From positions 1-42,315 of the IMG/VR virus record IMGVR_UViG_3300037470_000665: a stretch of DNA of 42,315 nt, one strand, 5' to 3'. Below are positions 7,585 through 42,315 of this stretch, piece after piece; position 1 is the stretch's first letter, and the number at the start of each line of letters is the position of its first letter. The notes below the pieces were generated by a model. It had not been told where the DNA came from, did not search any database, and worked only from the letters and a program-made list of their open reading frames with translations. The stretch is from a virus (taxonomy: Duplodnaviria > Caudoviricetes). The position numbers and the translations under genes were made by a program.

Positions 7585-7770
7585 GCAATGAGCCGTAACA
7601 CCGACCAACGCATCAAAGAGCTCGAGCGTGCCTGCATTATGCTTCGGTGCGAGCGGGACGGCGCCAGGCAGGAACTTGTGAGCCATGGGCTCGAAGTGCC
7701 GCAAGGCTTAACAGAAGCCGTCCCGGACGGATATATGACGTGTGGGTGGTGTGGTGGCCGTCTTCCGGAT

Positions 7771-8237: not shown

Positions 8238-8472
8238 TTCCGGATGGGTCACGGTCAGACCGGGAGTACTGCTCCCGGCAATGCCGGCGGTCAGCCTGGG
8301 AGGCTGCGGCCCACGAGGGGCGGGTGGCGAGCGTCAGGAAGCTCAAGAGCGGGAAGCTGAGCGTCGTGGTCCACGCCGAGCGGGATTTCGGGATCCTGCC
8401 CGGGCAGTTGGTCAGGATCGGATAGATCAGTTTTCGACGCCCAGAAGATCGCTGCACGGCCTAGCGGGGAAA

Positions 8473-25568: not shown

Positions 25569-25583
25569 CGATGGTCTCCAGAC

Positions 25584-26297
25584 TCAGGCGGTTGCGTTAC
25601 GGCAGATTCGCGCCCTGTTGTTCTTGACGAAGTGCTGCGCCTCACCGGGCTTCAGTTCAACGACCTCGCCACGTTCGAAGTCACGCCCCTGAAACGGCTG
25701 CGGCAATGGAGCCGTGAATTCGACCACGACGCCTGAAATCTCCCGCTCAAGCAACTCACGAGACGCAAAACAATCTGGCGTACCAGACACGCCGTGTTTA
25801 ACGAGCGGCCCGCCAACAGGCCGGTAATCGGCCGGATGCTTCGAGGTCAGGAAACGCCAGCGACGCAGGTGGTCTTCGAGTTCGAGCAGATTCCGATTGC
25901 TTTCGGCAGTCGCGTCATGCCAGTAACCACCAAGCAGGTCCATGCCAGCGACCCAGATCGGGCCGCACCCCATCAAGCGCGCTACCCACGCGGCAGCAAT
26001 ACCGCTGTCAGCAACCGGTGCCTGCAGGATCCGATAGTCTCCATACAGGTGCCTGGTGACGACAGGAACGCCGAACGGCAACACTCGGTCCGATATTTTG
26101 TCGAGTGCGACAATGTAATCGCACTCAACAAAACGCGCACCGTGATCGTTCGCAGAAAGGTGGACCGCATCGGCCCGCGAAGGGCAAAGAGCGATCTGAT
26201 CCGGCAAAGACATCCCACCGCCCAGCACGACGGCTGGGCGTCCGAGATACTTGTGGATCAGTTCGCGGACCGTGCGGTACGGTCGCGCAGCGGGCAC
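25584..26297 (-). CDS. Maf/DUF115-like (glycosyltransferase-associated) protein
   Basis: AVVLGGGMSL, SANDH, DSGIAAAWVARLMGCGPIWVAGMD. Confidence 0.6.
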   Translation of the reverse strand: MPAARPYRTVRELIHKYLGRPAVVLGGGMSLPDQIALCPSRADAVHLSANDHGARFVECDYIVALDKISDRVLPFGVPVVTRHLYGDYRILQAPVADSGIAAAWVARLMGCGPIWVAGMDLLGGYWHDATAESNRNLLELEDHLRRWRFLTSKHPADYRPVGGPLVKHGVSGTPDCFASRELLEREISGVVVEFTAPLPQPFQGRDFERGEVVELKPGEAQHFVKNNRARICRNATA

Positions 26298-27325
26298 TAG
26301 GTCAGCGTGGCTCGCTGCAGCATGCCAGGACGTGCCGCGATGAACAGCGGGTAGCTGTAAATCTCAACATCCGCCCACTGATCGCGGTCGCGATCGGGAA
26401 CAATCATCGGGTAGAAGGGCCGACCTTGTGTGTTCGCCCAGGTCATCGACTCACCAGGTGACATGGCCTGAACAAACGCGCCAGGTGCGCCGACCGGGAA
26501 GAACTTACACGTCCCAGCAGGGACCGTGAGAGTTGTCCCGTCGTCGGTGCCGCGGTAGTTAACGAACGTGATTTGACCGTACCGGACCTGATCGAACGCA
26601 TTGCCGACATCGTTCCGAAGCTGGCTGGCTTCCTGCTGATTCAGGTACGTCTGTCGAACCTCGGAGTGCGCGACGAGCGCATCGAAAAAATCGTCAGCGG
26701 CCAAACCAAACACCTGCGTCTGCGGCAACCACATTCCCTTCGCAGCTCGCATCGTTGCGCGCACAACCTGGTTGCACTTCACTCGCACAGCACCGCTCGC
26801 CGGGTTGGCGTTGTCCAGATCGAAGTCGATCACTCCAGGCTGAGCAATACCGAACTCGGTGAAGTAGTTCCGGATGGTCGATCCGTCAGCGTCAAGGACG
26901 ATGCCCTGAATAGCGCCCAGGCGCATATTCTCCCAGGTCAGCTCGACATCGTTTCGCACGCCCGTCATGCGGCGCATGACTTGATCCTGAATCTGTTCGA
27001 GCGCGGTAGTCGTGCCGAAATCCCTGACGTTCTGGATTTCCGAAGCCATGATTCGATCACCCTTCGCAACCCGGACCGTCCGGAAGTCATGTAGCGTGCG
27101 CGGGTCCTTGCCGCGCTGAGGCAAAGGTGCGCCCCGAGGCGTGGTCTGAACCAACGCCAGCGTACCTTCACGCTGCTCGATCGCAATCGTTTCCGTAGTG
27201 ACAGGGCGCTGCTCGAAGATGTTCAGGCTCCCAAGGTATTGCGGCTTGTACGGCACGAGCTCCAGCGCTTCCGTCAACTCGACAGTCCCGAAGGCGTCGT
27301 TGTTGAAGATGTCCAATGTAAGCAT
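26297..27325 (-). CDS. Major capsid protein (lambda E family)
   Basis: TPRGAP, ENMRLGAIQGIVLDADG, YSYPLFI; AGGAG SD. Confidence 0.92.
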   Translation of the reverse strand: MLTLDIFNNDAFGTVELTEALELVPYKPQYLGSLNIFEQRPVTTETIAIEQREGTLALVQTTPRGAPLPQRGKDPRTLHDFRTVRVAKGDRIMASEIQNVRDFGTTTALEQIQDQVMRRMTGVRNDVELTWENMRLGAIQGIVLDADGSTIRNYFTEFGIAQPGVIDFDLDNANPASGAVRVKCNQVVRATMRAAKGMWLPQTQVFGLAADDFFDALVAHSEVRQTYLNQQEASQLRNDVGNAFDQVRYGQITFVNYRGTDDGTTLTVPAGTCKFFPVGAPGAFVQAMSPGESMTWANTQGRPFYPMIVPDRDRDQWADVEIYSYPLFIAARPGMLQRATLT

Positions 27326-27368
27326 TTCAAAAACTCCTATTCAGATTGAAAGCGATGATGTGCCGCGA

Positions 27369-27734
27369 TCAGCGCATCAAGATGCCGAGGGCGACAAGTT
27401 GCGCAACGGCAGCAGCCGTCTCTGCCGTGCTGAGACCCGCGAACGTGAGCTCGCTCTCATTGACCTCCGCGTCACGAACAACAGCGACCGCTTGCGAATC
27501 ACTCGCACCAACGGTCTGGCCTTCCCAGAGAATCCCAGCAGCGGCCTCGGAGCCGTCCGACGCATCCGGGTCGACCGCGACGTACTTTCCGCCCGATGTG
27601 ATCTTTCCGAGGACCTGACCGGCAACGAGAGCGCCCTCGTTTGCGAGAAGCGTGATCTGCTCGCGAGAGCGAAGTCCGTTGGCTTCTGAAACGATGAAGC
27701 CGCCGGCGTGTTGACCTTCAGTGAGTGTCGTCAT
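27369..27734 (-). CDS. Head decoration protein (lambda D-like)
   Basis: SEANGLRSRE, GQVLGK, DGSEAAAGIL, RDAEV; GGAGG SD. Confidence 0.88.
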   Translation of the reverse strand: MTTLTEGQHAGGFIVSEANGLRSREQITLLANEGALVAGQVLGKITSGGKYVAVDPDASDGSEAAAGILWEGQTVGASDSQAVAVVRDAEVNESELTFAGLSTAETAAAVAQLVALGILMR

Positions 27735-29073
27735 TGCATTTTCCTCCATGCTTAACGATGGTGTTACGCCACGCACCGGGAAGTTTCCCTGGCTCGTTGC
27801 GGCCGTTTAGTTTTGGCAAAGTGGTCGAAATTTCTTGTTCACGCCTTGTCTTGTCTTCGAGCAGATCGGCTTTCACCTCATCGATCGAGACATTGCGGGA
27901 TACGAACTTGGCTGCCTTGTCGCCGGCGCTCATCAGCGCGCACGCAGCAACCACATCAACGGCGTGTTTCACGCGTGCGTCGATCTGGTGCTCTGCAATC
28001 TCCGCTTGCAGCAGCGCCTGCCGAACGTCGACTGGAAGTTCAGCCGCCATCACTGCGGTCGTGGCAATCCCCTTGATCCGGTCTGCTTCAGCCTTGGATT
28101 CCTCAGCAGCTGCCACGGCGGCACGCGCCTCCTCAGCCTTCCGTTTCTCCTCGGCGCGAGCGAGGCTGGATTCGTCTTCATTGCCAACCTTGGACAAATG
28201 TTCAATTGCGTCGTCGAGCGTGCCAATCTGATCGGCGAGCTTTTTGGCGACGCCGTCTTCGCCACAGTAGGTCAGCGCTTCTGTCTTCCGGATCACGTCA
28301 GCATCGATGCCTCGATACTTTTCAACGGATGCAACGAACAGTGTGTACGTCTGATCGATGTCTGCCTGGGCTCTGGCCTTCGCATCTTCTGACAGCTCGA
28401 AGTGAGGACTGAAATCGACCTTATGGGCGCCGGCATAGATTGGGGTGACCTTGACGCCGATATTCTCGTTGTAGGCGCTCTGGTCGTAATGAAAACCGAC
28501 GACGCCGATCGAGCCGACACCCGAGGTCCGAGTCACCCAGACATACTCGGCAGCCGCCGCGATGGCATAGGCAGCGGAGTAGGCTATGTCGTCGACGACC
28601 GCATGGATCGGTTTGACCTGGCGCGCTTCGTAGATGTGGTCCGTAAAATCGAACAGTCCGCTGACCAGCCCTCCAGGACTATCCATCCGGAGAATGATCG
28701 CTTTCACCGTGCTGTCGGAAACGAGTTCGTCGAACGTTTCGGCCAGCGCCTCGTAGCTCTGCGGGCCCGGGCCAGAAGGACCGGCCGTGGGCCGGCTCAC
28801 CAGCGCGCCTGAGATGTTCATCACCGCGATGCGGCCTGACGACTGCATGAATCCCGCCTGCCCTTCTGCAGCCGCCGACGGGATCGCATGAAACGTAGTG
28901 AGCGCTTTCTGCGGATAGTCAACCGCCCCGTGCATGTAGGCCTGCAGCAGGCTTTCGCCAATCGCCGGGTGAATCAGCAACGGTCGGTTCAGCGCGAGTG
29001 AATACAGCTGCGTGATGACGGCGTTTTCTGTGCGGCGCGCGAATCGCGCGAGAATGTTCCATTTGCTTGGCAT
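27718..29073 (-). CDS. S49 prohead protease with scaffold-like C-terminus
   Basis: DSPGG, AYSAAYAIA, GSIGV, AGAHKVD. Confidence 0.92.
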   Translation of the reverse strand: MPSKWNILARFARRTENAVITQLYSLALNRPLLIHPAIGESLLQAYMHGAVDYPQKALTTFHAIPSAAAEGQAGFMQSSGRIAVMNISGALVSRPTAGPSGPGPQSYEALAETFDELVSDSTVKAIILRMDSPGGLVSGLFDFTDHIYEARQVKPIHAVVDDIAYSAAYAIAAAAEYVWVTRTSGVGSIGVVGFHYDQSAYNENIGVKVTPIYAGAHKVDFSPHFELSEDAKARAQADIDQTYTLFVASVEKYRGIDADVIRKTEALTYCGEDGVAKKLADQIGTLDDAIEHLSKVGNEDESSLARAEEKRKAEEARAAVAAAEESKAEADRIKGIATTAVMAAELPVDVRQALLQAEIAEHQIDARVKHAVDVVAACALMSAGDKAAKFVSRNVSIDEVKADLLEDKTRREQEISTTLPKLNGRNEPGKLPGAWRNTIVKHGGKCNDDTH

Positions 29074-29076
29074 TGG

Positions 29077-30732
29077 TCAGTCCTCTTCGGTGTCTTCGTC
29101 CGGGTCCGTATTGCGATCCGGATCATCGGAGTCGCTCTCTTCGTCGTCTTCGTCGTCATCGACATCGTCCGCGCCGCGCTTTTTCACGTCGGTCGGCGGG
29201 ATCTCTGTACCTGCCGGTCGAGCCTGTGTCAGTCCGGCGCCGGACGTCTTTCGACCGTCGCTGTCGTACACCAGGCCGAGTTTGTCGGCGCGCTCGTTGT
29301 CTTCAGCGTTCCGCCGATCGAGCTCCTCGGGGTCCTCTCCGTTCCGGAGATTGACATCCGATCGCGTATCGAGACCTGCGCGGATCGCCTTGATGTCGGC
29401 GCTGACGTCCTGCACTGGGTGGCTGTACGGCCAGCCCTGCGGCACCCAAAGCGTGTCAACAATCTCCGGCCGTTGCTCCGCGTAGTCCGGAATCACCAAT
29501 GCATTGGACATCCAAGACATATCGAAGAAACGGGTTCGCACCGGCTGGCAGAACTTCGGGATGAACGTCAGCCACTGACGCATCTCGATCGTCCGCTTGA
29601 ACTCATTCAGGATAAGCTTCAGCGCGCGGTCCGATATATTCCTCAAGTCTCCGGTCACAACTTCATAAGGCACGCCGTTCCGCGCGCAAATCGCCAGCAA
29701 CTGCATCCGATAGAACTCGCCCAAGTCGGCACTCGGTGCCGGCGGATTCGAAAACTTCGGCTCAACACCGTCCGGCAGTTCCTGCCCGGTTCCAGGCTCG
29801 AGGCCTGCCAGAGGCACATCGTCGTCATCAAGATCCTGGTCGCCGTCTTCGTCATACGACATCTCGTCAATGAGACTCTCCGGATTCTCCGGATCTGTCT
29901 TGCGCGTGTAGAAGAGGGTGAACAGATTCGCGATCTTCTGACGCTCGAGCACCGCGTCATCGAGGCTGTCCAGATTGAACATGCGAAGCAGCACGGAAAC
30001 AGAATCTGGAAGACCCCGAATTTGTCCGGCACGCAGCGGCCGATAGAGGTGAATCACCTCCTCAGCTGGCACGCGAACGTATTCGTTGCCACGATTGAAG
30101 AACATCGTGTCGCCTGGATGCTCTTTCCAGAACCAATAGGCGACGCGCTTGCCTATGAGATTGAACTCAACGCCAGCGCGCACCGGGTTGCCGTTGCTGG
30201 CGGTCGTGTAAAGATCCGCCGGGCACTGCTCAGACTCGATCAACTGAACCTGGAACGGAACTGCGAGACCATCCGATGGGCGGCGTGTTCGAAATCTGGC
30301 GAAGACCTCACCGACCTCGTGCCACTCGTGCCAGGCGAGCAACTGCAGTCCGTACCAGTCGAGCCCACCGTCGGCGTCGACCTCCTTAATGAAACGATTC
30401 CAGACCTGCTTCGATGCCTTCTTCAGGGCATCGGAGCCGTTCACCATCTTTGCCTGAATACCGGTGGCGATTCCGTTCGAATCCAGCTTGTCGAGGATCG
30501 CTCCGGCCCAAGGGTCGTTCCTTGCCGCTGCCCGCGTCCTCGAGCGAATCAACGCCTGCTCGCGCGTCACCGACACATTCGGGCCGCTGGCCGGCGGTCG
30601 CCACATATGCAGGCGCCTGCCCTGGCCACCTGCGTGATAGATCGGCTGCCGCTCCGAACGTGGCACCGTAAACCCGTCCGACTGCGCAGCCATTCCCTGC
30701 TGCGGCGTAATCAGCGTCCAATCCTTCACCAT
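29077..30732 (-). CDS. Portal protein (lambda family)
   Basis: GEVFAR, QLIESEQ, RAGQIRG, YEVVTGD; acidic C-terminal tail. Confidence 0.93.
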   Translation of the reverse strand: MVKDWTLITPQQGMAAQSDGFTVPRSERQPIYHAGGQGRRLHMWRPPASGPNVSVTREQALIRSRTRAAARNDPWAGAILDKLDSNGIATGIQAKMVNGSDALKKASKQVWNRFIKEVDADGGLDWYGLQLLAWHEWHEVGEVFARFRTRRPSDGLAVPFQVQLIESEQCPADLYTTASNGNPVRAGVEFNLIGKRVAYWFWKEHPGDTMFFNRGNEYVRVPAEEVIHLYRPLRAGQIRGLPDSVSVLLRMFNLDSLDDAVLERQKIANLFTLFYTRKTDPENPESLIDEMSYDEDGDQDLDDDDVPLAGLEPGTGQELPDGVEPKFSNPPAPSADLGEFYRMQLLAICARNGVPYEVVTGDLRNISDRALKLILNEFKRTIEMRQWLTFIPKFCQPVRTRFFDMSWMSNALVIPDYAEQRPEIVDTLWVPQGWPYSHPVQDVSADIKAIRAGLDTRSDVNLRNGEDPEELDRRNAEDNERADKLGLVYDSDGRKTSGAGLTQARPAGTEIPPTDVKKRGADDVDDDEDDEESDSDDPDRNTDPDEDTEED

Positions 30733-30944
30733 CAGATGCCTTTGCCCTTCTGATAAAGACGGAACGTTCGTCGGCGGCGAGATCCTGCTGCTACATCGAG
30801 CTCACGCTTCATCTGCTGCCGAAGTGAGCGCATATCGCTCAGGCTGTTGTAGGTCACGCTTCGCCCGTCGCGGTGGCGGACCGTCAACACACCACTGGCG
30901 ATCGCTTCTTCCAGCGCCGCAAGTTGTTCCGTTGTGTAGGCCAT
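30732..30944 (-). CDS. gpW-like head-tail adaptor
   Basis: LAALEEAIASGVLTV...SVTYNSLSDM. Confidence 0.85.
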   Translation of the reverse strand: MAYTTEQLAALEEAIASGVLTVRHRDGRSVTYNSLSDMRSLRQQMKRELDVAAGSRRRRTFRLYQKGKGI

Positions 30945-30947
30945 TCG

Positions 30948-33005
30948 TCACCTTCGTTGCAGGTAGTTGCTACGGGCGCTGCGTAGACGCTTTCGCTTCT
31001 TTCGCTTCGCCCGCCGCGGTGTAGTCGGTTCTGGTTCGTCCGGTGGGCCACTGGCAGCAGCTGACGCCTGCTTCTTCGGCGCAACCTCATCAGGCGGCGT
31101 CTTTTCCGCTCGACGCTTTTCTACCAGCGCCGCGAGCTGGTTGAGATCGACGCCACGGCCGATCATCACGGCATACGCGTAGTTCCAGCAGTCCTGCGCT
31201 TCCTGCCGACTGCCGAGTTTCTTCGGTCGCCACATGGCCACTCGACGGCCGTTCGTCTTCTTGTAAATCTTCGTTTCGCTGACAAACTGTTCACACCAGT
31301 CGTCATCAACCGACAACGGTAAGTGAATGTAGCCTGGCTTCGGCTCGCCGGGGTCCGGTGGCGTGATCTTCGCCAGTCGGCCGTACAAGAGATCCTTGAT
31401 CGTGTCGACGCCGACGCTGTAGATGTCGGCCTTCGAGAGCTTCGTTTTTCCGGGCTTGCGCGGCCACACCAGTCGACCAACACCGCCAACACCGCGAACA
31501 GCGTGCACTCGCTCGAACCGATATCGATGGCAGTAGTTCGCCACGTGCTGACCATAGTGGCCGCCGAAGTCGACGCCAGTGCCCTGCACGCTGAGGGTCC
31601 GTCCATCCTCGGTGTGAAACCGCTGCCGGCGATAGGTCGTCAGCTCTTTCCACACGCCCTTCGTCGGCGCAACACCTGGATCACCGCGGAACACTTTGTG
31701 CTCGAGGACCCAGGACTCTTCGTCAGCGCCCCAGCCCACGAGCTCTACCTCGAGCCGATCATCTTGCGTATCAGCGCCGACAGTCACCATTACGATGCCT
31801 GGCGGCAAGACTTCCGCGTCGTAAGACTCACGGCGAGCCGCGAGACCGGCCGGCTCAATCGACCTGGCCGTATCCTCCCAAGTCTCGCCGAGGCTCTCGT
31901 TGACCCATTGCTGAAGTGTCTCCGGTAGTTTTTTCGCCTCAACGAACGAAGCGGCCATCTCTCCCATGGAGACCAGCGGCGACATCAGTTCGTGGACGTG
32001 AAAGCCTGCGATTCCGTTAAACTCTTTCGCGGCAATCACTTCGTACTTCGGCAGCATCTCCTTGCGCTGCCCTTCGTCAATCACTCCGCCGCAATGCACA
32101 CACTGGTAGACCGCCTGCTCCGGCGGCAGGCCGAATTCAGTCCATTTGACTTGCGGCCAAACCAGCCGCTGAAGTTTGCCGCAGTGCGGACAGGGGTAAT
32201 GGAAATATCGCTGATCAGAACCGTCGAAGCCCGCCTCCACCCGCGACTGCCCCTTTATCGTCGGCGTCGAGCCGGCAATGATTACGCGATTCCAAAATGC
32301 GGCCGTCCGCTTCCTCGCTCGAGCAAACGGATCGCCCTCCGATCCTGCCGATGCGGGATAGCCATCGATTTCATCGCACAGCAACACTCGAATCGGCCGG
32401 CTTCGCAAGCCGGTCGGCGAGTTGGCGCCGACGAGCGTGAGATGGCCACCGGGGAATCGCTTGTGCGATAGGGTGTTGCCTGAGTCGCGCGACCGCGGAT
32501 CAGCAATCTTCCCGGTCAGCGCCGATGTGTCTCGCACCATGGGCGCAAGACGGTCCTTGCTGAAGGCCTCGGCGAGTTCGAGCGTCGGCTGTATCAACAT
32601 GATCGGCGCCGGATCGAGGTCGACGAAGTAGCCGATGACGTTAAGCAAAAACTCAGTCAGCCCAACCTGGGCTGATTTCATCAACCAGATCTCGCGCACC
32701 AACGGATCCGTAACAGCGTCCATAATCGGACGCAGGTGCGGCATCCGCGACGTTCGCCACTGGCCTGGCTCAGCGCTACTTTCGCTGCTTAACTTTCTTT
32801 CGGCGTCGGACCACTCGCTTACCGTTAGGTTTGGCGGGGGCCTCAGCAGGCTGAACATCTCCCGCGCCGTCTGACGCGAGTTCTCCCAACTCTGACGATC
32901 CCCCAGGATCGGGGCCCGAGTCGAAATCAGCGAGGTCTGCGAGACACTCGTTGTGCTCTCTATCGATATGCTCTCTAGCAAGTTTCGGGTTTCCCGGGTT
33001 TGCAA
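30948..33005 (-). CDS. terL: Terminase large subunit (lambda gpA family); true start probably downstream of 33005
   Basis: KSAQVGLT (Walker A), LLCDEIDGY (Walker B), GSTPT, CPHC, GADTQDDR, EAQDC. Confidence 0.95.
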   Translation of the reverse strand: MQTRETRNLLESISIESTTSVSQTSLISTRAPILGDRQSWENSRQTAREMFSLLRPPPNLTVSEWSDAERKLSSESSAEPGQWRTSRMPHLRPIMDAVTDPLVREIWLMKSAQVGLTEFLLNVIGYFVDLDPAPIMLIQPTLELAEAFSKDRLAPMVRDTSALTGKIADPRSRDSGNTLSHKRFPGGHLTLVGANSPTGLRSRPIRVLLCDEIDGYPASAGSEGDPFARARKRTAAFWNRVIIAGSTPTIKGQSRVEAGFDGSDQRYFHYPCPHCGKLQRLVWPQVKWTEFGLPPEQAVYQCVHCGGVIDEGQRKEMLPKYEVIAAKEFNGIAGFHVHELMSPLVSMGEMAASFVEAKKLPETLQQWVNESLGETWEDTARSIEPAGLAARRESYDAEVLPPGIVMVTVGADTQDDRLEVELVGWGADEESWVLEHKVFRGDPGVAPTKGVWKELTTYRRQRFHTEDGRTLSVQGTGVDFGGHYGQHVANYCHRYRFERVHAVRGVGGVGRLVWPRKPGKTKLSKADIYSVGVDTIKDLLYGRLAKITPPDPGEPKPGYIHLPLSVDDDWCEQFVSETKIYKKTNGRRVAMWRPKKLGSRQEAQDCWNYAYAVMIGRGVDLNQLAALVEKRRAEKTPPDEVAPKKQASAAASGPPDEPEPTTPRRAKRKKRKRLRSARSNYLQRR

Positions 33006-33453
33006 GCGGCGCTACCTTCGACCCTGCCGCGCGTAGCCTTGCCCTGATTGCCTGGAGCCCCTTGCTCATGGCTTCCGCCATGTGCTGAGTCGTGACCAGA
33101 GAGCCACGCGCCAGCGCGTTCTCGATCTCGATCTTGTCGGCGCGAGCTCTATGCTCGCGGGCCGCCTCGTACTTCGGATCAATTTCATCGTTCGATTCGG
33201 CCTTCGATGTCGAAGCAACCTTCAACTCGTCGCGCAACGATTCGTTTTCAGATTCGAGCGGGGCCAATTTTCGTTTGATCGCAAGCTCGTACACTTTCGG
33301 CCAGAAATAGAACGCCTCTCGACCGCGACGCTCGTCCGGCGAGACCCCCCACTTGCTAAAGGCCTGCGTGGAAATCCCTATCAATGATGCCGTTGTCTTT
33401 TGGTTAAAAAGCAAACTCGGATCGAAGTCGGTATCAACTAATCGATCGGCCAT
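32776..33453 (-). CDS. terS: Terminase small subunit (Nu1-like)
   Basis: N-terminal HTH (ASLIGISTQAFSKW); RARADKIEIEN...GSLV. Confidence 0.82.
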   Translation of the reverse strand: MADRLVDTDFDPSLLFNQKTTASLIGISTQAFSKWGVSPDERRGREAFYFWPKVYELAIKRKLAPLESENESLRDELKVASTSKAESNDEIDPKYEAAREHRARADKIEIENALARGSLVTTQHMAEAMSKGLQAIRARLRAAGSKVAPLANPGNPKLAREHIDREHNECLADLADFDSGPDPGGSSELGELASDGAGDVQPAEAPAKPNGKRVVRRRKKVKQRK

Positions 33454-33566
33454 TTCTCTTCCTGACCAAAAAACAACAACCGGTGGCCCTTAGCGGTTCT
33501 GGCGCTAGCGGACGATTGTGGTCCGAATAACCCTCACGTCACCGTTCCCTGAGGGATCCCTCAGCT
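33454..33566. other. Probable cos/packaging-initiation region
   Basis: Intergenic gap directly upstream of terS in a lambda-type packaging module; contains the perfect palindrome CTGAGGGATCCCTCAG (33549-33564). Confidence 0.45.
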
Positions 33567-34379
33567 TTATTTCCTAGCGGTCGCCAGTGCGCGCCTTAGC
33601 GCAGCAGGCCATGCGCGCAGAAATCTGCGGCGACCTTCCTGCTGTGCTAATCGATAAAAGTCAAACTGCTTTGAGTACGTCGGCAAGTCGACAAACAGCA
33701 GCACCGGCTTTATGCCTCGAGCGACTTTCTTCCGACCTACCGGCAACCCGCCGTACTTGCGCTTGGCTTGTCTGCGTCCACCCTGGCGCTGGTAGATACC
33801 TCTCGGCAGATGGCCGTCACGCGCATTGCCGCGAACAACAAAGTACTCGGCACGTCCCGCTTTAGTTCCACGTGCGCGCGATGCGGCAGTGATATTGGCG
33901 CTGAACCCTTCTTCACCAAAGGCCTTAACGCCGGACAGTATTCGCGTGATTTGCCCGCCAGTCAGATTGCCAAAACGATTAAGTTTGATTCCAGTTCGAG
34001 AAGCGGGTATCCAGCCCTCTCCCCTCGAGATGATGCCGCGACGCGCCAGCACACTCTCAGATCGTTTCTGTCGACGACGTTGTCCTCGGATCAATGCCTT
34101 CAGATACATCTTCGGAGATGTACCTTTCGGTGCATCATCGCTGATGTACACACTGGAAGCAGGGCTCAGCTTGTTTCCCTTTTTATACCGCACACCCCGA
34201 ACGGTGAACGGAGTCGGATCGTCCAGATACAGCGGCAGCGCCTGCTGCAGCGTTCTCGCTGTTTCGAATGCGGCCTGGTTGGCCGCCAGAGAGCGGGCGA
34301 AAGGCAGTTGCTCCCGTTCCAGCCTCGTCAGCCTCTTCTCGAGAACCGTGGTGTCGATCACCACGTCGAAAGAAGTCAC
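33567..34379 (-). CDS. Basic phage morphogenesis protein (tail completion/Z-like)
   Basis: QLPFARSLAAN, DPTPFT, RQKRSE, NRFGNL, FDFY...ALATAR; typical gene preceding cos. Confidence 0.7.
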   Translation of the reverse strand: MTSFDVVIDTTVLEKRLTRLEREQLPFARSLAANQAAFETARTLQQALPLYLDDPTPFTVRGVRYKKGNKLSPASSVYISDDAPKGTSPKMYLKALIRGQRRRQKRSESVLARRGIISRGEGWIPASRTGIKLNRFGNLTGGQITRILSGVKAFGEEGFSANITAASRARGTKAGRAEYFVVRGNARDGHLPRGIYQRQGGRRQAKRKYGGLPVGRKKVARGIKPVLLFVDLPTYSKQFDFYRLAQQEGRRRFLRAWPAALRRALATARK

Positions 34380-34380
34380 G

Positions 34381-34719
34381 TCAGTACAGCAGTGTCACCG
34401 ACGTCGCGTCAGTTCCAGAATCGCAAATCAACCTCGGTGACATTGGATAGACAGCACCAGCCACTACTGTGGTTGACTTACACGACGATCCGTCATCTCC
34501 CCACGGTATGGCTGCAAGCGTTCCGGATACATTGGCAATCATTGCGCGTGGCTGCCGAGTGAACGTCGTGGAGTCGTTCGGCACTATAACGTCCCAGTCT
34601 TGGGCGAATGCAGTCACGTTCTGAAGCTGGGCCACCGCAGGTTCGGCGGAAAGAAATATATTAGCTGTCACAACAACCAATAGCATCGCTGTGAAAGCCA
34701 CCGTGCGTTTAATTGTCAT
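34381..34719 (-). CDS. RcGTA Rcc01079-like head-spike base protein with signal peptide
   Basis: IVPNDST...PRAM...GTLA...AGAVYPM...GTDATSVTLLY matches the spike-base pattern; N-terminal hydrophobic leader ending AVA. Confidence 0.65.
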   Translation of the reverse strand: MTIKRTVAFTAMLLVVVTANIFLSAEPAVAQLQNVTAFAQDWDVIVPNDSTTFTRQPRAMIANVSGTLAAIPWGDDGSSCKSTTVVAGAVYPMSPRLICDSGTDATSVTLLY

Positions 34720-34916
34720 AGTGAGATTCCTATATCAATAGCAATTACATTGCTCCCCGGCGCGCTGCCGCCGCCACAGCTTGCCTCGAAATAGAAGCCG
34801 TCCGCGTAGAACGAGGTGTCGTAAAAACCCGCGCCGTAGAACCCATCGCACTCAAGGCTGGCATTGCCAGCCGAGACCCACACGACGGACAGAATGCCGA
34901 TTGCAAATTTCCTCAC
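34716..34916 (-). CDS. Small exported peptide with FY repeats
   Basis: GTG overlaps the upstream TGA; MRKFAIGILSVVWVSAGNA leader; GFYGAGFYDTSFYADGFY; ends IDIGISL. Confidence 0.6.
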   Translation of the reverse strand: MRKFAIGILSVVWVSAGNASLECDGFYGAGFYDTSFYADGFYFEASCGGGSAPGSNVIAIDIGISL

Positions 34917-35857
34917 GGCGTAATCACTGCTTCGCAACCGGACGCATCCTGCAACTCATAGGCAAGCCCGCTCACGTCTCCCGTCAGATCGGGCCGAAAA
35001 TTTAGGGTGTCGGTAGCTGCAACGAAAGCGTAGACGCAAGCCGATTGTCCGAGCAACGCGCCTGAAGTCACTTTGAATAGCTTGCCGTGCCAGTGGTCAT
35101 CCACTTCGGTCAGGCCAGCGTCAACACAGGTCGAGGCCGATCCGCTAGCGCATACGCCCTCGGCGACTTGATGCAACGCGAGCAGCGCCGCAGCACCGCT
35201 GCCAGCCACAGAGTCGTGATCTGCCAGATCCTCTTCCCAAACCGCATCGGCGTTAGCATCCGCATCGGGCAAACTGCCGACTGCGCTTGCGACTGAACTC
35301 AGCGCGCTATCATGCGATGACAAATTCGCTGCGGTGGCAAGGCCCGCCGCAGTAATCCTGGCATCGATCAGGTCAGACAGGTCTGGCCCTGTTGCGAACT
35401 CCTGCGAGATCCGGACTACCTTGGTAATCAAGGTCGAACCGCCGTCGCCAATCGAGATTAACAGCGCCTTCGAGCCTGTGACCCCGTTAACCTCGTCACG
35501 AATGTGAAGACGAGGACACCCCTGCGAGTCCTGATCCACCTCGATCGCACTGGTCGTCGGATCGCCCCACGCACCAGTCCCGGGGCCGTCATCGATGTTG
35601 GCGCCGGTGTAAGCGAACTCGGTCAGTGCGGTGCCCGCTGCTGTCTCGGCAACGATATTGATCGCAAGCGACGCGTAATCGAAATCCACATCGGCAATCG
35701 ATTCCGGCGCGGCAACCGTGTTGAGGCAGACAATCGGTAGAATCTGGCTGGTCGAATCAAGCTCCAGATACCCAATGATCGCCTGACCGTTGGCGAGAGG
35801 CGCGGCCAGCACCATCAGAAATGCACAAATCAATCTATTTGGAATTACACCGTTCAC
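34913..35857 (-). CDS. Exported acidic structural-like protein
   Basis: GTG 35857; signal NRLICAFLMVLAAPLANG; ADAVWEE and DDHWHGKLFKVTSG motifs like phage fibre/decoration proteins. Confidence 0.65.
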   Translation of the reverse strand: MNGVIPNRLICAFLMVLAAPLANGQAIIGYLELDSTSQILPIVCLNTVAAPESIADVDFDYASLAINIVAETAAGTALTEFAYTGANIDDGPGTGAWGDPTTSAIEVDQDSQGCPRLHIRDEVNGVTGSKALLISIGDGGSTLITKVVRISQEFATGPDLSDLIDARITAAGLATAANLSSHDSALSSVASAVGSLPDADANADAVWEEDLADHDSVAGSGAAALLALHQVAEGVCASGSASTCVDAGLTEVDDHWHGKLFKVTSGALLGQSACVYAFVAATDTLNFRPDLTGDVSGLAYELQDASGCEAVITP

Positions 35858-35886
35858 TTCATCACCATCCTGATTACGTGTTAAAC

Positions 35887-35927
35887 ACCCCAGTGGGGTT
35901 GACAGGCTGCCCCCAACGGGGTAATCT
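35887..35927 (+). promoter_or_regulatory. Sigma70 promoter with two operator-like palindromes
   Basis: TTGACA (35899-35904), 17 bp, TAATCT (35922-35927); CCCCAGTGGGG and CCCCAACGGGG. Confidence 0.75.
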
Positions 35928-35981
35928 AGACCCACGGTAGGGATAACCCTGCCGCCGCGCCTCGGGACCAGGGGCAGAGAG

Positions 35982-36245
35982 ATGAAAATGTTCACCGAAG
36001 AAAACACCAACGGATACACCGCCGCTCAACTCGCCGCGCTCAATGCAGCGCTCACTCGCCGATTGATCGGCGTGGAGCCCGGCTCGGATGAGGCGATCCA
36101 AATCGAAAAGGAGTTCGCCGATCAAATCGGCCACGCCGCCGAGGAATCTATCGAGGCGTACAACACTGCGGCACTGGCCGGGTTCACGCAGGAACAGTGC
36201 GATGCCGAACAACTCGCCGCGCTCGGCGAAATTCTTGCGCGATGA
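35982..36245 (+). CDS. Hypothetical acidic protein (moron)
   Basis: Downstream of the promoter; coupled to the HTH gene. Confidence 0.7.
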   Translation: MKMFTEENTNGYTAAQLAALNAALTRRLIGVEPGSDEAIQIEKEFADQIGHAAEESIEAYNTAALAGFTQEQCDAEQLAALGEILAR

Positions 36246-36475
36246 CCAACCACCCCAACCGATCCCGGCGCACGGACGCACCGGGGCGGACACCGAAACC
36301 AGATGAGATCCGCGCAGCCCGTGAGGCTGCCGGGCTCTCACGCCTCGACGCCGCTGCATTGATCTACCGCTCCGTGCGCGGCTGGGAAAAATTCGAGAGC
36401 GGCGAACGGCCGCTTGATCCCGCGCTGTGGGAGCTGTGGCTCCTGAAAATTCAGGCGCGGGAGTCAACGATATAA
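36242..36475 (+). CDS. XRE-family HTH regulator
   Basis: MTNHPNRS...EIRAAREAAGLS...WEKFESGER...LWELW. Confidence 0.82.
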   Translation: MTNHPNRSRRTDAPGRTPKPDEIRAAREAAGLSRLDAAALIYRSVRGWEKFESGERPLDPALWELWLLKIQARESTI

Positions 36476-36483
36476 CTCCCAAT

Positions 36484-37240
36484 CTATTCATCGTCGGTCA
36501 GTCTCCGGTAGATAATCAGGTCCAGGCCTGTCGCCTCAGCTTCGATCTCAAACATGAGGCCGGCCAGTTCATCGGTCGCCTGCCCATCCCAATCGACATC
36601 GAGCGGCGCGGCTGCAACGGCGGACATGACTACCGCATCGCCTGCACCACTTGTCGGAATCACCTCTATGCTTTCCGTCCAGCCCATGTTCAACGTGACC
36701 GGGTCCATGTCAGCGCCGCGAAATCCAACCGCTGCGTAGAGCAGATTGCCAGCCGTGCCGGCACTCGCGATGGTGCAGTTCGTGCCGCCGACATTGTCAA
36801 CGCACTCGCCGAGCGGGTTTGTTGCACCGTCAACGCCACCGGATATGTCGACCTGATCGATACAGGTAATCGCGATGGTCGATGCCACCACATCGCCGAC
36901 GCTGGAGAAATTTAGATTGGCGGTCTTTGCGGCCGGACTAACCAGCCCCCATGCGCGCTGAAAATGATCCCCGCCGAGACCGCTACTTGTTGAGTTTGTA
37001 ATCAGCGTTAGCGTCTGATTCGCGGTCGGAATGTCCCACGTCGGCGTGATCGTAGTGGATTGAGCGCCCGTGTTCATCGACGCAACCATCAGGTCGCAAC
37101 CGGCGGGCACCGTATAGCTGACATCGAGCGATGTCCAATTCGTGGTGACAAGCTGAACGTCACCGACGGGTGTGCCGACCTCAACCGGGTCGGCGAGTGC
37201 GGCTCCGACAAAAAACAGGGGGGCTAGGAAAGCCCGGCAA
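36484..37240 (-). CDS. Exported beta-rich structural-like protein; start codon unresolved
   Basis: FLAPLFFVGAALA-DP signal-like segment; Ser/Thr/Gly-rich body; ends IIYRRLTDDE; a plausible in-frame ATG (MRTTSRF) is at 37983. Confidence 0.6.
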
Positions 37241-37913
37241 GCGAGAGCGTGTGCTCTACCTCCGCGAGGTTTATCACGGTTTCTGCTCTCGATCTTCCGG
37301 TCTTGACCAGGCGTGGTGCCGTCTCCTGCAACGGCAAGCCGAGAAAATCGAACAGAGCGCCAAAATCCCGGCACAGCGATTCGTAAGACACCTCGCACGA
37401 ATCGACGCCCACTAACTCGATCAACCGTCGCGCCCATTTCCGGTCCCGTCGAATTCGTCGAACGTCGCGCACAACCCTGTCGGGGTCGAGCCGCATTTGA
37501 GCATGCTCGAGCTTCTCGCCTTTGCGCTGGTGCGCAATCCCCATGTGCTTCATCCGGGCTTTCGAGATCACTGCGTCCAAATCGTCCCTGACAAGATGCA
37601 CGACCCTGATTTTTCGCCGTCGAAAATACAGCAGCAGCTCCGGAAATTTTCGAAGCTGCCCATACATCAGCTTGAAGCCGACCGCGCCGGGCTGGTCGTA
37701 AAGCCCATCCAAATACTGCCAGGACCGGAACCGATGCAACGGTCCAGGACGCCAGTATCGAAAGTAGCGATAGTCGTTGCCCACGACACCAGAAGCATTC
37801 CCGGCCTTCGTGTGCATCAGTTCTAAATAGCTTTTGACGCCGTGCGCCTGATCCAGGGTGTCCATGACCCAGGACGATCCGGTTCTCTGCGTGGAGAGGA
37901 TGACGAATTTCAT
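37224..37913 (-). CDS. Sulfotransferase (Stf0/Sulfotransfer-like)
   Basis: FVILSTQRTGSSW PAPS-binding loop, GFKLMY, VVHLVR, VSYESL. Confidence 0.82.
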   Translation of the reverse strand: MKFVILSTQRTGSSWVMDTLDQAHGVKSYLELMHTKAGNASGVVGNDYRYFRYWRPGPLHRFRSWQYLDGLYDQPGAVGFKLMYGQLRKFPELLLYFRRRKIRVVHLVRDDLDAVISKARMKHMGIAHQRKGEKLEHAQMRLDPDRVVRDVRRIRRDRKWARRLIELVGVDSCEVSYESLCRDFGALFDFLGLPLQETAPRLVKTGRSRAETVINLAEVEHTLSLAGLS

Positions 37914-37985
37914 TATTGTTCCCCCGATCCTTTGGCTCCAACGGTACCACACGGCTCGACCCAAAGCGTGACGTAGTTCTCATTT

Positions 37986-40649
37986 TCACGGATTGTCCAG
38001 CGCCTCCATCGCGATGCAGATCGAGTTCGTGGCCGGCTGCCAGCGGCAGAAATTGCGCCACATCGTCGATATCGCCTTATTGACAAACACATCAGAGCCA
38101 GTCATGTCGGACTCGGGTACGGCAAGCAGACCGGCCGCGCAGTCGTCGTTCACGGTGGGATCGCAGTTGACCTGCGCGACGGTCGGGTACACATAGGGCG
38201 GTGTCCCGAAATCCGATGACAGGATTCGCTCGCCGGTATCGCCGCCATCAAACTCCGCGAACACGTTGTCGCGGGTTGCCTGATAGAGCGGCGGCATCGC
38301 GGAGTCTAGCGGTCGAGGTCCAGCCTCGTTGGCTAACAGTTTCGAAAAGTCTTCAATGTCACTGGTAGTGCAATTAAACGTTGTTGCCTCGTATCCACCC
38401 GGCTCTGCCGTCGCGATCCGAGTGCCGACCGCGTTCAGCAGTCCTGCCGAATAATCGGCCGGGACAATGGCGTTAACGGACCCGCCTGCCTCTGTCCACT
38501 CGCAGTTGCCGATCTGGTAGGCGTCGAACTCGCTGAGGCACTCGCCGTTCTGTGGATGGCAAAATCTGATAATCTGCGTTTCGTCAATCGTCGCCAGACT
38601 GTCGTCGCCGCGAATGCTCGCGTTGTAGCGGAGGTTCAGATCCCGGCCGGTCGACTGATAGTTGATGTCGATTTCGGACAGCCGGTTATTAACGCAAATG
38701 TTGTTGTCGATGTGGCCGTTCATCGCGTTCCATTTCGGGCAGCGCAGCGTGCCGTGCGCCGACAGATTTCTAACAAATGTGCCGTTGTTCGAATCCCCGG
38801 AATCGTGGCCGAGCAGATATAGCTGCTGAAGGGCTTGCCCCGGCGTTTCGAGTGGCAACGTATTCAGGTTGCCGATCAGTCCGAATTCCGTTGTGTCGTG
38901 GAACACATTGAGCCATCCGTCGCCGGCAAACGCACCGCCGCTGTACAGCACGAGAATGTGATCGTTCGGTTCGCTGGCGGTCCCGTTGATGTTGAAACAG
39001 TGTGCCGGCCCCTGCTGCGCGTTGTAGTTGTTGAAGCATCCGTAGTACAGCCAGAGCTGATAGCTCGCACTCCTCGGTTGAACATTCAAATCGGTTTTCG
39101 TGTACCCACCCGATGGGCAAGTCGATAGGTCCACAATCAACCGATCTGTGTTAACGACAAGGGTCGTTCCCGACACGTGATCGCTAACCCCCGACACCGC
39201 ACACGCGCAGTACTGCCACTCGTCGGCCGGACGCTGCGTCGTCACGCACTGCGAGAAAGATCCGGCGCCGGACTGATTCAGATTCGTGAACTCAGCGTAG
39301 TGGATGGTGCCAAACTCGTAATCGGTTGCGGCTTCGCCCCAGCCGTCAGCACCGTAGCTCGCAATGCCCGGGATGATCGAGTCGGTCGGCGACATTGTCA
39401 TCCACGAAAACCCGGCGTCGGCATCGAGGATCGTGATCGTAGCAACCAGCCCTTTGCTCGGACCGAGGGTATCGGGGCAGGAGTTGTCGGATGCGACCAG
39501 TGTGAACGTTCGGTTGCCCTGCTGCTGGCCGTCGAGATCCGTAATCGAGACCGCGACCGACTGGGTGCCCGCCTCAGCGTCATCCCAATGGACGACCTCA
39601 GAAACTGCCGTGAAGTGAGTCGCTGCGCTGGCAGACCCGTTGGCTGAGACCACGTTGACATCGCACGCGCCGGCTGCGCCGCCAAACCGTTCGAGCGACA
39701 CATTCAGCGACGCGGTTTCCTCGCTGACCTGATAGCTGATGAGGTCCCACTCGATGGACCCGATATCCGGATTGTGATCGAGCGCCCCGGTAGCGATATC
39801 GATTTGATCAAACAATCCGCCGGCAGTCGTCCCTGCACTGCCCGAGGCGGCAGCCAATAACACCAGGGGAGTGCTGCCGCTCGCGGCCCAGTCGGAAAAA
39901 AACTGGTAGCGAGCCGTGTACGTGCCGGTCGAGCAGTCCGTTGCATCGCCTTTCTGAAGCAGCTTGACGCTTTGGAGGGCGCGATCGACCTGTATCTGCA
40001 AACACTCCGGCACCGGCATCTGGGGAGCAGCGAAATACGCGGTTGACGTTTCTCCGTCCGTCACTGATCGACAATCGATGATCGTCCCGCTGTTGCGAAA
40101 ACTGCCGAGCACGCAATGCTCCGATCCGTCGGCAGAGCTTTCCCGCAGCATGATCCCGATCTTCGAGAGAATGTCCTGGGTCTGCGTCGCGGTCACAAGC
40201 CGCGCCGTTATCGTGTAATCGCTCGTGCTGTCGAGCGTGATGCCGCAGGCAGCGAAACTGTCATCGTTGTTGTAGATCACGCCGCCAGTCGACTGCACGA
40301 CGAACGGCTCCGCATCGCATTCCAGCACCGCATCGGTGTGCGGCGCCGTAGCGCCGAGAATCTCGACCGGCCCCCAGGTTGCGGCCTCGGCTGCCGGCGG
40401 ATCGTTCAGCACCGGAACGAACAAGCTCTGAGCGTCTGCCGTCGGAATCCAGCCTTCAAAAATGTTGAACGCCTTGCAATCTCTGCTCGCCCAATTTCCG
40501 GCGCGGGTCTCGAGCAGGATCCGCTCGCCAGTCTCGCGCAAACAGCTCTCAGCTCCACCCGGCAGCTCATCGCGAGCCCATTGCCCGAGCACGGCCGCGG
40601 CGAACAGGAGCAAGACGGATGCGCCGATGGCGCGGAATAGTCGGTTCAA
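37986..40649 (-). CDS. Large exported multidomain protein: ConA-like, Calx-beta and pectate-lyase-like beta-helix domains
   Basis: Signal peptide; TITARL...KIGIMLRES; YQVSEE...VSLER...ANGSA...WDDAE; TNLNQSGAGSF...VSG PL1-like start; 26 Cys. Confidence 0.72.
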   Translation of the reverse strand: MNRLFRAIGASVLLLFAAAVLGQWARDELPGGAESCLRETGERILLETRAGNWASRDCKAFNIFEGWIPTADAQSLFVPVLNDPPAAEAATWGPVEILGATAPHTDAVLECDAEPFVVQSTGGVIYNNDDSFAACGITLDSTSDYTITARLVTATQTQDILSKIGIMLRESSADGSEHCVLGSFRNSGTIIDCRSVTDGETSTAYFAAPQMPVPECLQIQVDRALQSVKLLQKGDATDCSTGTYTARYQFFSDWAASGSTPLVLLAAASGSAGTTAGGLFDQIDIATGALDHNPDIGSIEWDLISYQVSEETASLNVSLERFGGAAGACDVNVVSANGSASAATHFTAVSEVVHWDDAEAGTQSVAVSITDLDGQQQGNRTFTLVASDNSCPDTLGPSKGLVATITILDADAGFSWMTMSPTDSIIPGIASYGADGWGEAATDYEFGTIHYAEFTNLNQSGAGSFSQCVTTQRPADEWQYCACAVSGVSDHVSGTTLVVNTDRLIVDLSTCPSGGYTKTDLNVQPRSASYQLWLYYGCFNNYNAQQGPAHCFNINGTASEPNDHILVLYSGGAFAGDGWLNVFHDTTEFGLIGNLNTLPLETPGQALQQLYLLGHDSGDSNNGTFVRNLSAHGTLRCPKWNAMNGHIDNNICVNNRLSEIDINYQSTGRDLNLRYNASIRGDDSLATIDETQIIRFCHPQNGECLSEFDAYQIGNCEWTEAGGSVNAIVPADYSAGLLNAVGTRIATAEPGGYEATTFNCTTSDIEDFSKLLANEAGPRPLDSAMPPLYQATRDNVFAEFDGGDTGERILSSDFGTPPYVYPTVAQVNCDPTVNDDCAAGLLAVPESDMTGSDVFVNKAISTMWRNFCRWQPATNSICIAMEALDNP

Positions 40650-40661: not shown

Positions 40662-40686
40662 AAAAAAACCCCGCCGTTAAGCGGGG
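40662..40686 (-). terminator. Intrinsic terminator in the late leader
   Basis: Minus strand CCCCGC-TTAACG-GCGGGG followed by T7. Confidence 0.8.
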
Positions 40687-40803
40687 CTAAGGTGAGACTG
40701 CCAATGGACAGCCCAGGGGGGAATGATGCTGATCTTTGGTCAGCGGTCGCTCATGATGAGACCCTCCGTGTTGACCAATTGATTGCTACCAATTTGCGGA
40801 CAC

Positions 40804-40831
40804 AAAAAAGCCGGCGCTCTTTGGCCGGCTT
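40804..40831 (-). terminator. Intrinsic terminator after the Q-like gene
   Basis: Minus strand GCCGGC-N8-GCCGGC followed by T6. Confidence 0.8.
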
Positions 40832-40876
40832 CAGTGATCGATAGGCGCACGTTTCCTGTGGACCCACCGTCACGGG

Positions 40877-41512
40877 CTATCGCACGTGTCTCCGCTCGGG
40901 AGCAACCGCCACAATCGGGCGGCTACGCGGGGAGTGACTATAGCCCCTCGACAGCGTCTCGGCAACCATCTCGATACCGGCGTCAAGTTCGGACCGGTAC
41001 TGGCGCTTTGACATCCGGAGATCCTGAGCCGCGCTCTTGTCGATCTGGTCCCAGCAGTACCGGCGCTTCAGCGGCACCTGTGCCCAGCCAGGCAGGCTTG
41101 CGACGATGGCGTCGATCTCCATGTCGAGCGACGAGAGCTTTTGATTCAGCGGCGCCGGCGGCGAATCGGTCTCCTTCCCGCGGGCCGTTGGCTCGCGCAA
41201 TCGTGACAAGCTGTGGCCGCAGTTCGGACAGGCCCGGCGATTCCATTGCCCGTTGACCCTGGCGCCCCATCGGCGCTGTCTGGTCACATGGCCGCAGGCG
41301 AGACACTCGCGGCGCTTAGGTTCGCCCTTCTTTCCGTCGATCTTTCGCTTGGCCTGAGCTCGCTGAACGTGCTCGATGATGGCCCGGAGCCCAAGCGAGC
41401 GCGAGACGTTGTACTCGGCGGCGAAGTTGCCGGTCGCTTCGCCCCACGCCGTCAGCCGCGCTTCGGCTCGCTCGATGGCGTCCGCTTCCTGGTCCCTGGC
41501 CACTGCCATCAT
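40877..41512 (-). CDS. Late antiterminator Q-like protein with Zn ribbon
   Basis: ARLTAWG start, two CxxC motifs, C-terminal HTH; precedes the terminators and late operon. Confidence 0.6.
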   Translation of the reverse strand: MMAVARDQEADAIERAEARLTAWGEATGNFAAEYNVSRSLGLRAIIEHVQRAQAKRKIDGKKGEPKRRECLACGHVTRQRRWGARVNGQWNRRACPNCGHSLSRLREPTARGKETDSPPAPLNQKLSSLDMEIDAIVASLPGWAQVPLKRRYCWDQIDKSAAQDLRMSKRQYRSELDAGIEMVAETLSRGYSHSPRSRPIVAVAPERRHVR

Positions 41513-41979: not shown

Positions 41980-42194
41980 GCCGCCATCCTCAGGATCATC
42001 TCGTTCGTGGCCCAGAGCAGATATTCCTCGGTGCCGAAGCGTTCTTCGAAGGCCCGCTTCTCAAGCGCAAGACTTGGTCCGAAGTACCGGGCCGCCCTGC
42101 TTGCATCGATCTGCCGGCCGGTCCGGTCGGTCGGCGGAATGCCGCGGTGATACCAGCACGAAAGACAAATCGTGTGCTGATGCTCGTCTTCGTA
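41976..42194 (-). pseudogene. C-terminal fragment of a Ref-like (RecA-dependent) nuclease, cut by an IS end
   Basis: HQHTICLSCWYHRG...GPSLALEKRAFEERFGTEEYLL; the frame meets TAA inside the TIR. Confidence 0.6.
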
Positions 42195-42195
42195 A

Positions 42196-42315
42196 GGGAA
42201 TTACATACATGAGTCCCCAACCTCCCACCGTAGCTTGCGTTGCGTCGGGTGCTCATCCACTCGGGGCCTGGCTTGCCGCGACCAGGACCCGCCGCCCGCC
42301 TCGCCAACGAGCTTG
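42196..42315. mobile_element. End of a second IS1595-like element running off the window
   Basis: GGGAATTACATACATGAGTCCC (42196-42217) matches the MITE TIR at 21/22 positions. Confidence 0.75.

What the first reader, a model, noticed from the sequence alone, without database searches (positions are those of the whole stretch)
34381..40649. Head-spike/decoration-like module whose proteins all carry signal peptides and even cysteine counts: possible periplasm-folded virion appendages
Seen: the first late genes, upstream of cos/terminase, include five proteins with Sec-like leaders (MNRLFRAIGASVLLLFAAAVLG; FLAPLFFVGAALA; NRLICAFLMVLAAPLANG; MRKFAIGILSVVWVSAGNA; MTIKRTVAFTAMLLVVVTANIFLSAEPAVA). 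Their mature regions have 26, 4, 6, 2 and 2 Cys by my count, all even. The last resembles the RcGTA head-spike base Rcc01079, and its neighbour ends in IDIGISL, reminiscent of the LGLGL-type peptide that anchors head fibres. Known: tailed-phage virions assemble in the reducing cytoplasm, so structural proteins normally lack signal peptides. Inference: these parts are exported, disulfide-bonded in the periplasm and dock onto capsids at lysis, or they form a phage-derived secreted complex. I know of no description of such a system.
Basis: partly seen in the sequence, partly recalled or inferred. Interest (0 to 1): 0.82.

Follow-up and report, generated by a model that had tools for sequence, protein, structure and literature searches.

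The report
Phage head spike with export signals
A sediment phage encodes a known capsid-corner spike base, a matching anchor peptide and larger partner proteins that begin with predicted bacterial export signals and are rich in cysteines, so this spike is likely built outside the cytoplasm and may be clipped onto the phage head only when the cell bursts, a route I found no description of for tailed phages.

Summary
Largely real. The window is a temperate phage with a lambda-type head. Gene F (34381-34719) is an Rcc01079-family spike base by profile, sequence and fold, with a 30-residue signal-peptide-like leader. Its start, and that of neighbour E, are pinned by overlapping stop/start codons. 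F's six closest relatives and D's only relative also carry such leaders, while 126 of 134 spike bases examined do not. E ends in a nine-residue alternating motif matching the RcGTA fibre anchor, moved to the C-terminus. Cysteine counts are as stated and three-fold enriched, but evenness alone is weak. Caveats: C has no usual start codon, a leaderless sulfotransferase and a 649-bp insertion interrupt the cluster, SignalP was not available, and nothing here shows the proteins on virions or disulfide-bonded. Best reading (0.5): Sec export, periplasmic folding, docking on capsid corners at lysis. Main rival (0.3): an exported complex that never joins the particle. This scan's earlier notes report the same pattern in about nine other genomes; I could not fetch any of those loci. 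Ten literature searches found no description.

The parts
40877..41512 (-). Q-position late regulator candidate with a zinc finger
   Evidence: weak ArpU match E 0.012, below cut-off; zinc ribbon; role inferred from position
40667..40832 (-). two terminator-like hairpins (40832-40807, 40688-40667) ahead of gene A, downstream of a promoter-like site at 40965-40937
   Evidence: consensus matches only (12 found against 7.5 expected)
37986..40649 (-). A, 887 aa: leader (predicted cut after residue 22), Calx-beta domain 298-411, likely polysaccharide-lyase-like beta-helix in the C-terminal half; 26 Cys
   Evidence: lyase is a lead only (Atlas features 0.83); variants mostly synonymous
37224..37913 (-). 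B, sulfotransferase, no leader
   Evidence: Pfam Sulfotransfer_3 E 2.4e-6, above cut-off
36484..37250 (-). C, 235-aa mature region from 37191 with 4 Cys behind a hydrophobic leader that lacks a usual start codon
   Evidence: same sequence in one contig of a second sample; no relatives found
35831..36488 (.). 649-bp insertion bounded by a 9-bp direct repeat (35831-35839 and 36480-36488); carries plus-strand ORFs 35982-36245 and 36242-36475 (HTH); separates D from an ATG at 36491 that overlaps C's end
   Evidence: one contig of run X2 skips it; repeat and frame checked; HTH_31
34913..35857 (-). D, leader plus 290-aa mature region with 6 Cys; likely fibre-type
   Evidence: sole relative P0140 has a leader, 6 mature Cys and two aligned Cys in the shared domain
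34716..34916 (-). E, 66 aa: leader, aromatic FY repeats between 2 Cys, C-terminal anchor motif IAIDIGISL (34719-34745); start overlaps D's stop
   Evidence: motif compared with PMC7296036
34381..34719 (-). F, Rcc01079-family spike base with a 30-residue leader (34630-34719) and 2 Cys; start overlaps E's stop
   Evidence: NF048002 39.4 bits against cut-off 28; 6tb9 E 1.4e-5 and 8cjz E 1.9e-4; Foldseek 6tb9 and 8cjz, rmsd about 2
26297..34379 (-). downstream head module in the same orientation: phrog_1924 gene, terminases, portal, protease, gpD-type decoration, gpE-type capsid (the presumed docking partner)

Best explanation
The cluster encodes an RcGTA-type head-spike base (F) and an anchor-like peptide (E) with leader-bearing partners (A, D, perhaps C) that are likely exported by Sec during late infection, predicted to fold and form disulfides in the periplasm, and would dock on the five-fold corners of finished capsids when lysis mixes the compartments. 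Shown: F's family and fold, the leaders and their start codons (E, F), conservation of leaders in relatives, E's motif, cysteine enrichment, position ahead of the head genes. Inferred: cleavage frees F's N-terminal capsid-binding arm; five F subunits bind E's C-terminal alternating motif as Rcc01079 binds the Rcc01080 N-terminus; E's aromatic repeats recruit the larger proteins; A binds or cuts a host surface polysaccharide. The likely gain is that cysteine-rich and calcium-binding domains borrowed from secreted bacterial proteins can fold properly before use.
For: F is a spike base. In RcGTA the base binds the capsid by its N-terminus and takes a nine-residue Ile/Leu-alternating peptide (PMC7296036, passages). 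Cutting after residue 30 leaves F an arm of 10 residues before the core, inside the 7-22 range of leaderless bases. E's last nine residues are the only five-fold alternating I/L/V run at a protein end among 36 window ORFs and rank 2 of 10,377 window 9-mers against a profile of anchors from leaderless loci. In leaderless loci the gene after the base often starts with such an anchor and never with a leader; four loci have a 46-61 aa anchor peptide there, like E (L156, L157, L186, L188; also L161). The six best relatives of F all have leaders; four share a cysteine pair at positions other than F's. E and F starts overlap the upstream stops; D's displaced ATG overlaps C's end. A complete relative with 64% identical capsid has a leaderless fibre gene by the tail tip, which this phage lacks. 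Closest genome match is a Woeseiaceae bin, a host group with a periplasm.
Against: No observation places any of these proteins on a particle, in the periplasm or in a disulfide. Leaders were scored by my own rule, which missed P0002, P0003 and P0140. Three of 8 leader-bearing bases have no mature cysteine, and phage Milano forms many virion disulfides with no mention of signal peptides or periplasm in the main text (PMC10811340, passages), so disulfides do not need export. The RcGTA arm residue Glu12 has no counterpart in F, and I know of no such base on a lambda-type capsid (recalled). The complete relative G002 lacks the whole module, so it is accessory. C has no usual start, and the cluster is interrupted twice. 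I found no second locus where a leader-bearing base could be seen with its neighbours.
Confidence: 0.5

Rival explanations
1. The same F5-E-payload complex is exported but never joins the particle. It acts in the periplasm, on the cell surface or in the lysate as a soluble multivalent adhesin, decoy or polysaccharide-cutting scaffold that eases progeny escape or blocks competing phages.
For: All export evidence applies equally. A resembles secreted bacterial lyases, not virion proteins. The slot just after the late regulator holds exported cargo released at lysis in lambdoid phages such as the stx phages (recalled). The module is accessory.
Against: A capsid-vertex base and its cognate anchor are both kept, with a conserved arm motif in P0001-P0005. 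Leaderless bases in the phage loci examined sit among virion genes. F's stop lies one base from the next late gene.
Confidence: 0.3
2. The leaders are uncleaved or slowly cleaved membrane anchors that hold the spike parts at the inner membrane, either parking them until lysis or tethering heads to the membrane.
For: In F, P0002, P0003 and P0005 a long polar stretch separates the hydrophobic core from the predicted cut site.
Against: Small-residue -3/-1 motifs recur just before the mature start in these proteins, and P0004 has a short textbook leader. An uncut leader would block F's N-terminal arm.
Confidence: 0.12
3. The leaders are not functional (wrong starts or decaying genes) and the proteins are ordinary cytoplasmic spike parts or remnants.
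For: C lacks a start; an insertion hits D's start; a gene caller chose a later ATG for D (P0139).
Against: Stop/start overlaps fix E and F; leaders are kept across 30-43% identity; 24 of 34 variant codons shown in A are synonymous.
Confidence: 0.08

Closest known systems
RcGTA head spike: base Rcc01079 pentamer plus fibre Rcc01080 (PDB 6TB9; PMC7296036, passages seen)
   Same: F has the base's sequence family and fold; E carries a nine-residue alternating aliphatic motif like fibre residues 2-10; base and anchor genes are adjacent.
   Different: Both carry export-type leaders and cysteines; the anchor is C-terminal on a 47-residue peptide upstream of the base, not N-terminal on a 325-residue fibre; the head is lambda-type with gpD; docking is untested.
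Carin-1 spike base protein (PDB 8CJZ chain h)
   Same: Same fold on a phage capsid.
   Different: 92-residue chain without the leader extension; paper not read.
Filamentous phage coat proteins pIII/pVIII (recalled, no call)
   Same: Virion proteins with Sec signal peptides; pIII gets periplasmic disulfides.
   Different: Those virions assemble at the membrane without lysis; no HK97 capsid and no homology.
Late-expressed exported cargo of lambdoid phages, such as the stx AB5 genes after Q (recalled, no call)
   Same: Genes right after the late regulator, signal peptides, periplasmic assembly of a pentamer with a partner's C-terminal peptide, release at lysis.
   Different: Analogy of logic only; no homology, and no sign of a toxin here.
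Disulfide-linked virion of Agrobacterium phage Milano (PMC10811340, passages seen)
   Same: Cysteine-rich structural proteins (2.1% there, 2.6% here).
   Different: The main text mentions neither periplasm nor cytoplasm, and I saw no passage on export; the bonds link core tail parts.

Membership tests
Rcc01079 spike-base family (NF048002) | profile score above the curated cut-off | tested here: met
   39.4 bits against 28
Rcc01079 spike-base family (NF048002) | jelly-roll fold of 6TB9 | tested here: met
   model pLDDT 78-89 over the core; only two Foldseek hits at E<=0.001, 6tb9 and 8cjz
RcGTA-type head spike (system) | partner with an alternating Ile/Leu anchor peptide | tested here: met
   sequence pattern only, and at the C-terminus of E
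RcGTA-type head spike (system) | anchor at the N-terminus of a long fibre encoded after the base | tested here: not met
   the gene after F is phrog_1924; the anchor is on a small upstream peptide
RcGTA-type head spike (system) | cytoplasmic synthesis without a leader | tested here: not met
   leaders on E and F; so works like it, but is not a standard member
RcGTA-type head spike (system) | base pentamer binds the anchor and the capsid five-fold vertices | not testable with these tools
   needs a 5:1 model with the capsid, or experiment
Sec/SPase I substrates | charged n-region, hydrophobic core, small residues at -3/-1, true start | tested here: met
   A, D, E, F by my own rule; not SignalP; C fails for want of a start
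Sec/SPase I substrates | actual export and cleavage | not testable with these tools
   needs experiment
Polysaccharide lyase PL1/PL9 (protein A) | beta-helix domain with catalytic residues | tested here: inconclusive
   Atlas neighbours are PL1/PL9 at 0.81-0.83, under the 0.9 bar; no Pfam hit; fold model unusable

The most novel reading that the evidence does not exclude
A tailed phage builds part of its virion in a second compartment: a modular head spike (pentameric base, C-terminally anchored adaptor, swappable cysteine-rich payloads taken from secreted bacterial enzymes) matures in the periplasm and snaps onto capsid corners at or after lysis.
Probability: 0.5. Interest if true: 0.9.

Novelty: new variant of a known kind. 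Interest (0 to 1): 0.74.

Why it matters
Tailed-phage particles are held to be assembled wholly in the reducing cytoplasm, so annotators treat a signal peptide as evidence against a structural role. If spikes can be exported and added at lysis, that rule fails, many 'secreted hypothetical' phage genes may be receptor-binding parts, and phages gain access to disulfide- and calcium-dependent domains. The parts are a variant of a known spike; the assembly route would be a new kind. It is directly testable in RcGTA, and it suggests a way to display disulfide-bonded proteins on capsids.

Tried and rejected
Complex prediction of four F copies with mature E: no answer, score 0.00, uncalibrated and not a pentamer; not used as evidence. 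Single-sequence fold of A residues 410-887: pLDDT 31, unusable, not searched. No PDB sequence match for A, C or D at a meaningful E-value; no Pfam, PHROG or NCBIfam family for C, D, E. No loci for leader-bearing bases in viral, metagenome or genome contigs, nor for A, C or D; none for A, C, D in isolate phages. Spike base not found in the 80 terminase-neighbour loci, in 5 virus records or 2 genomes; 1 of 401 genomes of the Woeseiaceae bin's order and 9 of 401 of the Bradyrhizobium genus had a base, none with a leader. A matched 25 of 251 genomes through Calx-beta only. The tree of 134 bases is unresolved: leaders cluster (3 changes against 7.8 shuffled) but one origin is neither shown nor excluded, and the careful search did not finish. 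No RNA holder was listed. Phage tRNA-Val matches candidate hosts at only 85-90%, so it does not fix the host. Even cysteine counts rejected as evidence on their own. An assembly error at C's start is unlikely, as one contig of a second sample is identical there; a frameshift fusion of B to C was considered, but I saw no slippery site by eye. What lies after A and ahead of its codon 7 in the diverging strain contigs stays unknown. Pa223's capsid spike is a different fold (preprint passages).
Full report
Setting. The window is a whole 42,315-base virus record: a temperate phage with integrase, lambda-type terminase, portal, protease, gpD and gpE, and an RcGTA-like tail tip. It lies in four sediment metagenomes, one of which may be its source. 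The closest genome match is a Woeseiaceae bin (terminase and capsid 67% identical), which points to a host with a periplasm but does not prove it. The cluster follows a Q-position gene and two terminator-like hairpins and precedes the head genes on the same strand; that it is the start of the late operon is inferred from lambdoid gene order.

The observation. Five frames carry hydrophobic leaders and 26, 4, 6, 2 and 2 mature cysteines. With no SignalP on hand I wrote a three-part rule. It passes A, D, E, F and 2 of the other 32 ORFs tested, and 4 of 1314 internal 45-mers. E's start overlaps D's stop and F's start overlaps E's stop, and A has a ribosome-site-like GGGAG before its TTG, so the starts lie before the hydrophobic stretches. 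One low-depth contig of another sample skips a 649-bp two-gene cassette between C and D. The cassette is bounded by a 9-bp direct repeat, and an ATG at 36491 overlapping C's end is in D's frame across that repeat: D's natural start also precedes its leader and is coupled to C. Of the 40 variant rows shown (230 more were not shown), 38 fall in A; 25 are third-position, and 24 of 34 codons are synonymous.

Gene F. It passes the NCBIfam spike-base cut-off, matches Rcc01079 and the Carin-1 spike base by sequence, and its model finds only those two folds at E<=0.001. Its six best relatives among 1.84 billion representatives, 30-43% identical, all have leaders. Among 134 bases gathered, 8 (F included) have a hydrophobic peak of 2.55 or more and 126 have 1.64 or less; 5 of the 8 have two mature cysteines against 4 of 126 with two cysteines. 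The set was seeded with F, so 8 of 134 overstates the frequency, and P0002-P0005 are kin. Their cysteine pair differs in position from F's. D's single relative has a leader and two aligned cysteines in the shared domain.

Gene E. [quoted passage not shown] E ends in IAIDIGISL. As a control I read leaderless bases in 46 metagenomic loci (15; 31 after dropping L133 as a duplicate and L134 as a 24-residue false match; many are near-copies; L150 and L164 have a short hydrophobic start, not a full leader), 8 isolate phage and 2 plasmid records (10 fetched of 113 hits) and 9 Bradyrhizobium-genus hits. The next gene often begins with an anchor: 14 of 28 loci and 5 of 8 isolate phages by eye, 22 of 35 by a loose rule that also passes 7 of 37 window N-termini. 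None begins with a leader. Several are 46-61 residue anchor peptides. E looks like their exported twin, with the anchor moved to the end the leader does not occupy. That reading is inference from pattern.

Genes A, C, D. A has a Calx-beta domain and language-model neighbours among PL1/PL9 lyases below the bar for trust. C and D have no family; that they are fibre-type rests on my recall of similar phage proteins. A complete relative, G002, shares head and tail (capsid 64%) but lacks A-F and the two glycosyltransferases, and has a leaderless fibre gene beside the tail tip that this phage lacks. So the module is accessory, and may stand in for the missing fibre.

Mechanism. Late expression, Sec export, cleavage freeing F's arm (10 residues before the core, within the 7-22 of leaderless bases), oxidation in the periplasm, assembly of F5 with E and payloads, then docking on capsid corners once lysis opens the membranes. 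Binding of decoration proteins and P22 tailspikes to finished heads outside the cell makes the last step plausible (recalled). I give this 0.5; an exported complex off the virion 0.3; membrane anchors 0.12; artefact 0.08. No step after the sequence evidence was observed, and Milano shows that virion disulfides need no described export (PMC10811340, passages).

What is known. Ten full-text searches gave no paper on exported capsid spikes of tailed phages; I saw listings for most, and passages of PMC7296036, PMC5026251 (signal peptides appear only in methods and references), PMC10811340 and the Pa223 preprint. The library lacks most subscription papers, and I read no supplements, where signal-peptide predictions for phage genes could be tabulated. 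This scan's earlier AI notes describe the same pattern in about nine other genomes; they are unchecked, none matched F by sequence, and my search for the Bradyrhizobium case found no leader-bearing base in 401 genomes.

Verdict. A real, selected feature: a head-spike base and cognate anchor rewired for export. New variant of a known spike; the route would be a new kind if docking is shown. Interest 0.74.

Noticed in passing
window 10-220, 205-1398, 1727-1937, 5407-5617: Reverse transcriptase (phrog_1423) with three copies of a 211-nt repeat, two of them ending ORFs 1286-1939 and 5188-5619 (phrog_16004/4245): looks like a diversity-generating retroelement with two or three targets. None of the three copies looks like an all-adenine template by eye.
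   Followed up: partly
window 23132-26297: Four genes between capsid and head-closure genes: MptE-like (weak), GT2 glycosyltransferase, ATP-grasp/RimK-like, GT8-like. With the sulfotransferase at 37224-37913 they may chemically modify the virion surface. Relative G002 keeps only the first.
   Followed up: partly
window 35831-36488: Small insertion with a 9-bp direct repeat carrying an 87-aa ORF and an HTH gene and no recognisable transposase; absent in one contig of another sample.
   Followed up: partly
window 12242-12793: Another leader-bearing gene, 183 aa ending in Phe like an outer-membrane barrel, between tail tip and a TIGR02594 lysin-like gene; no family found.
   Followed up: no
window 8907-10100: Leaderless GH5 glycoside hydrolase after the lysis genes.
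   Followed up: no
window 3823-3896: tRNA-Val(GAC) next to the integrase, a likely attachment site.
   Followed up: partly
window 7764-7800, 8208-8244, 42191-42217: A 37-nt inverted repeat pair with a third copy near the window end, possibly operator or origin sites.
   Followed up: no
window 37933 and 40629: Strain contigs leave the window sequence just after A's end and within A's first seven codons, so the module's flanks are mosaic.
   Followed up: no
L181 (G582:C98), about 1195-1820 minus strand: A leaderless spike base fused in one frame to a long Ig-like repeat protein.
   Followed up: no
L175 2904-3581 minus strand (G002): A lone 225-aa leader-bearing protein with 4 Cys among non-structural genes of the relative.
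   Followed up: no
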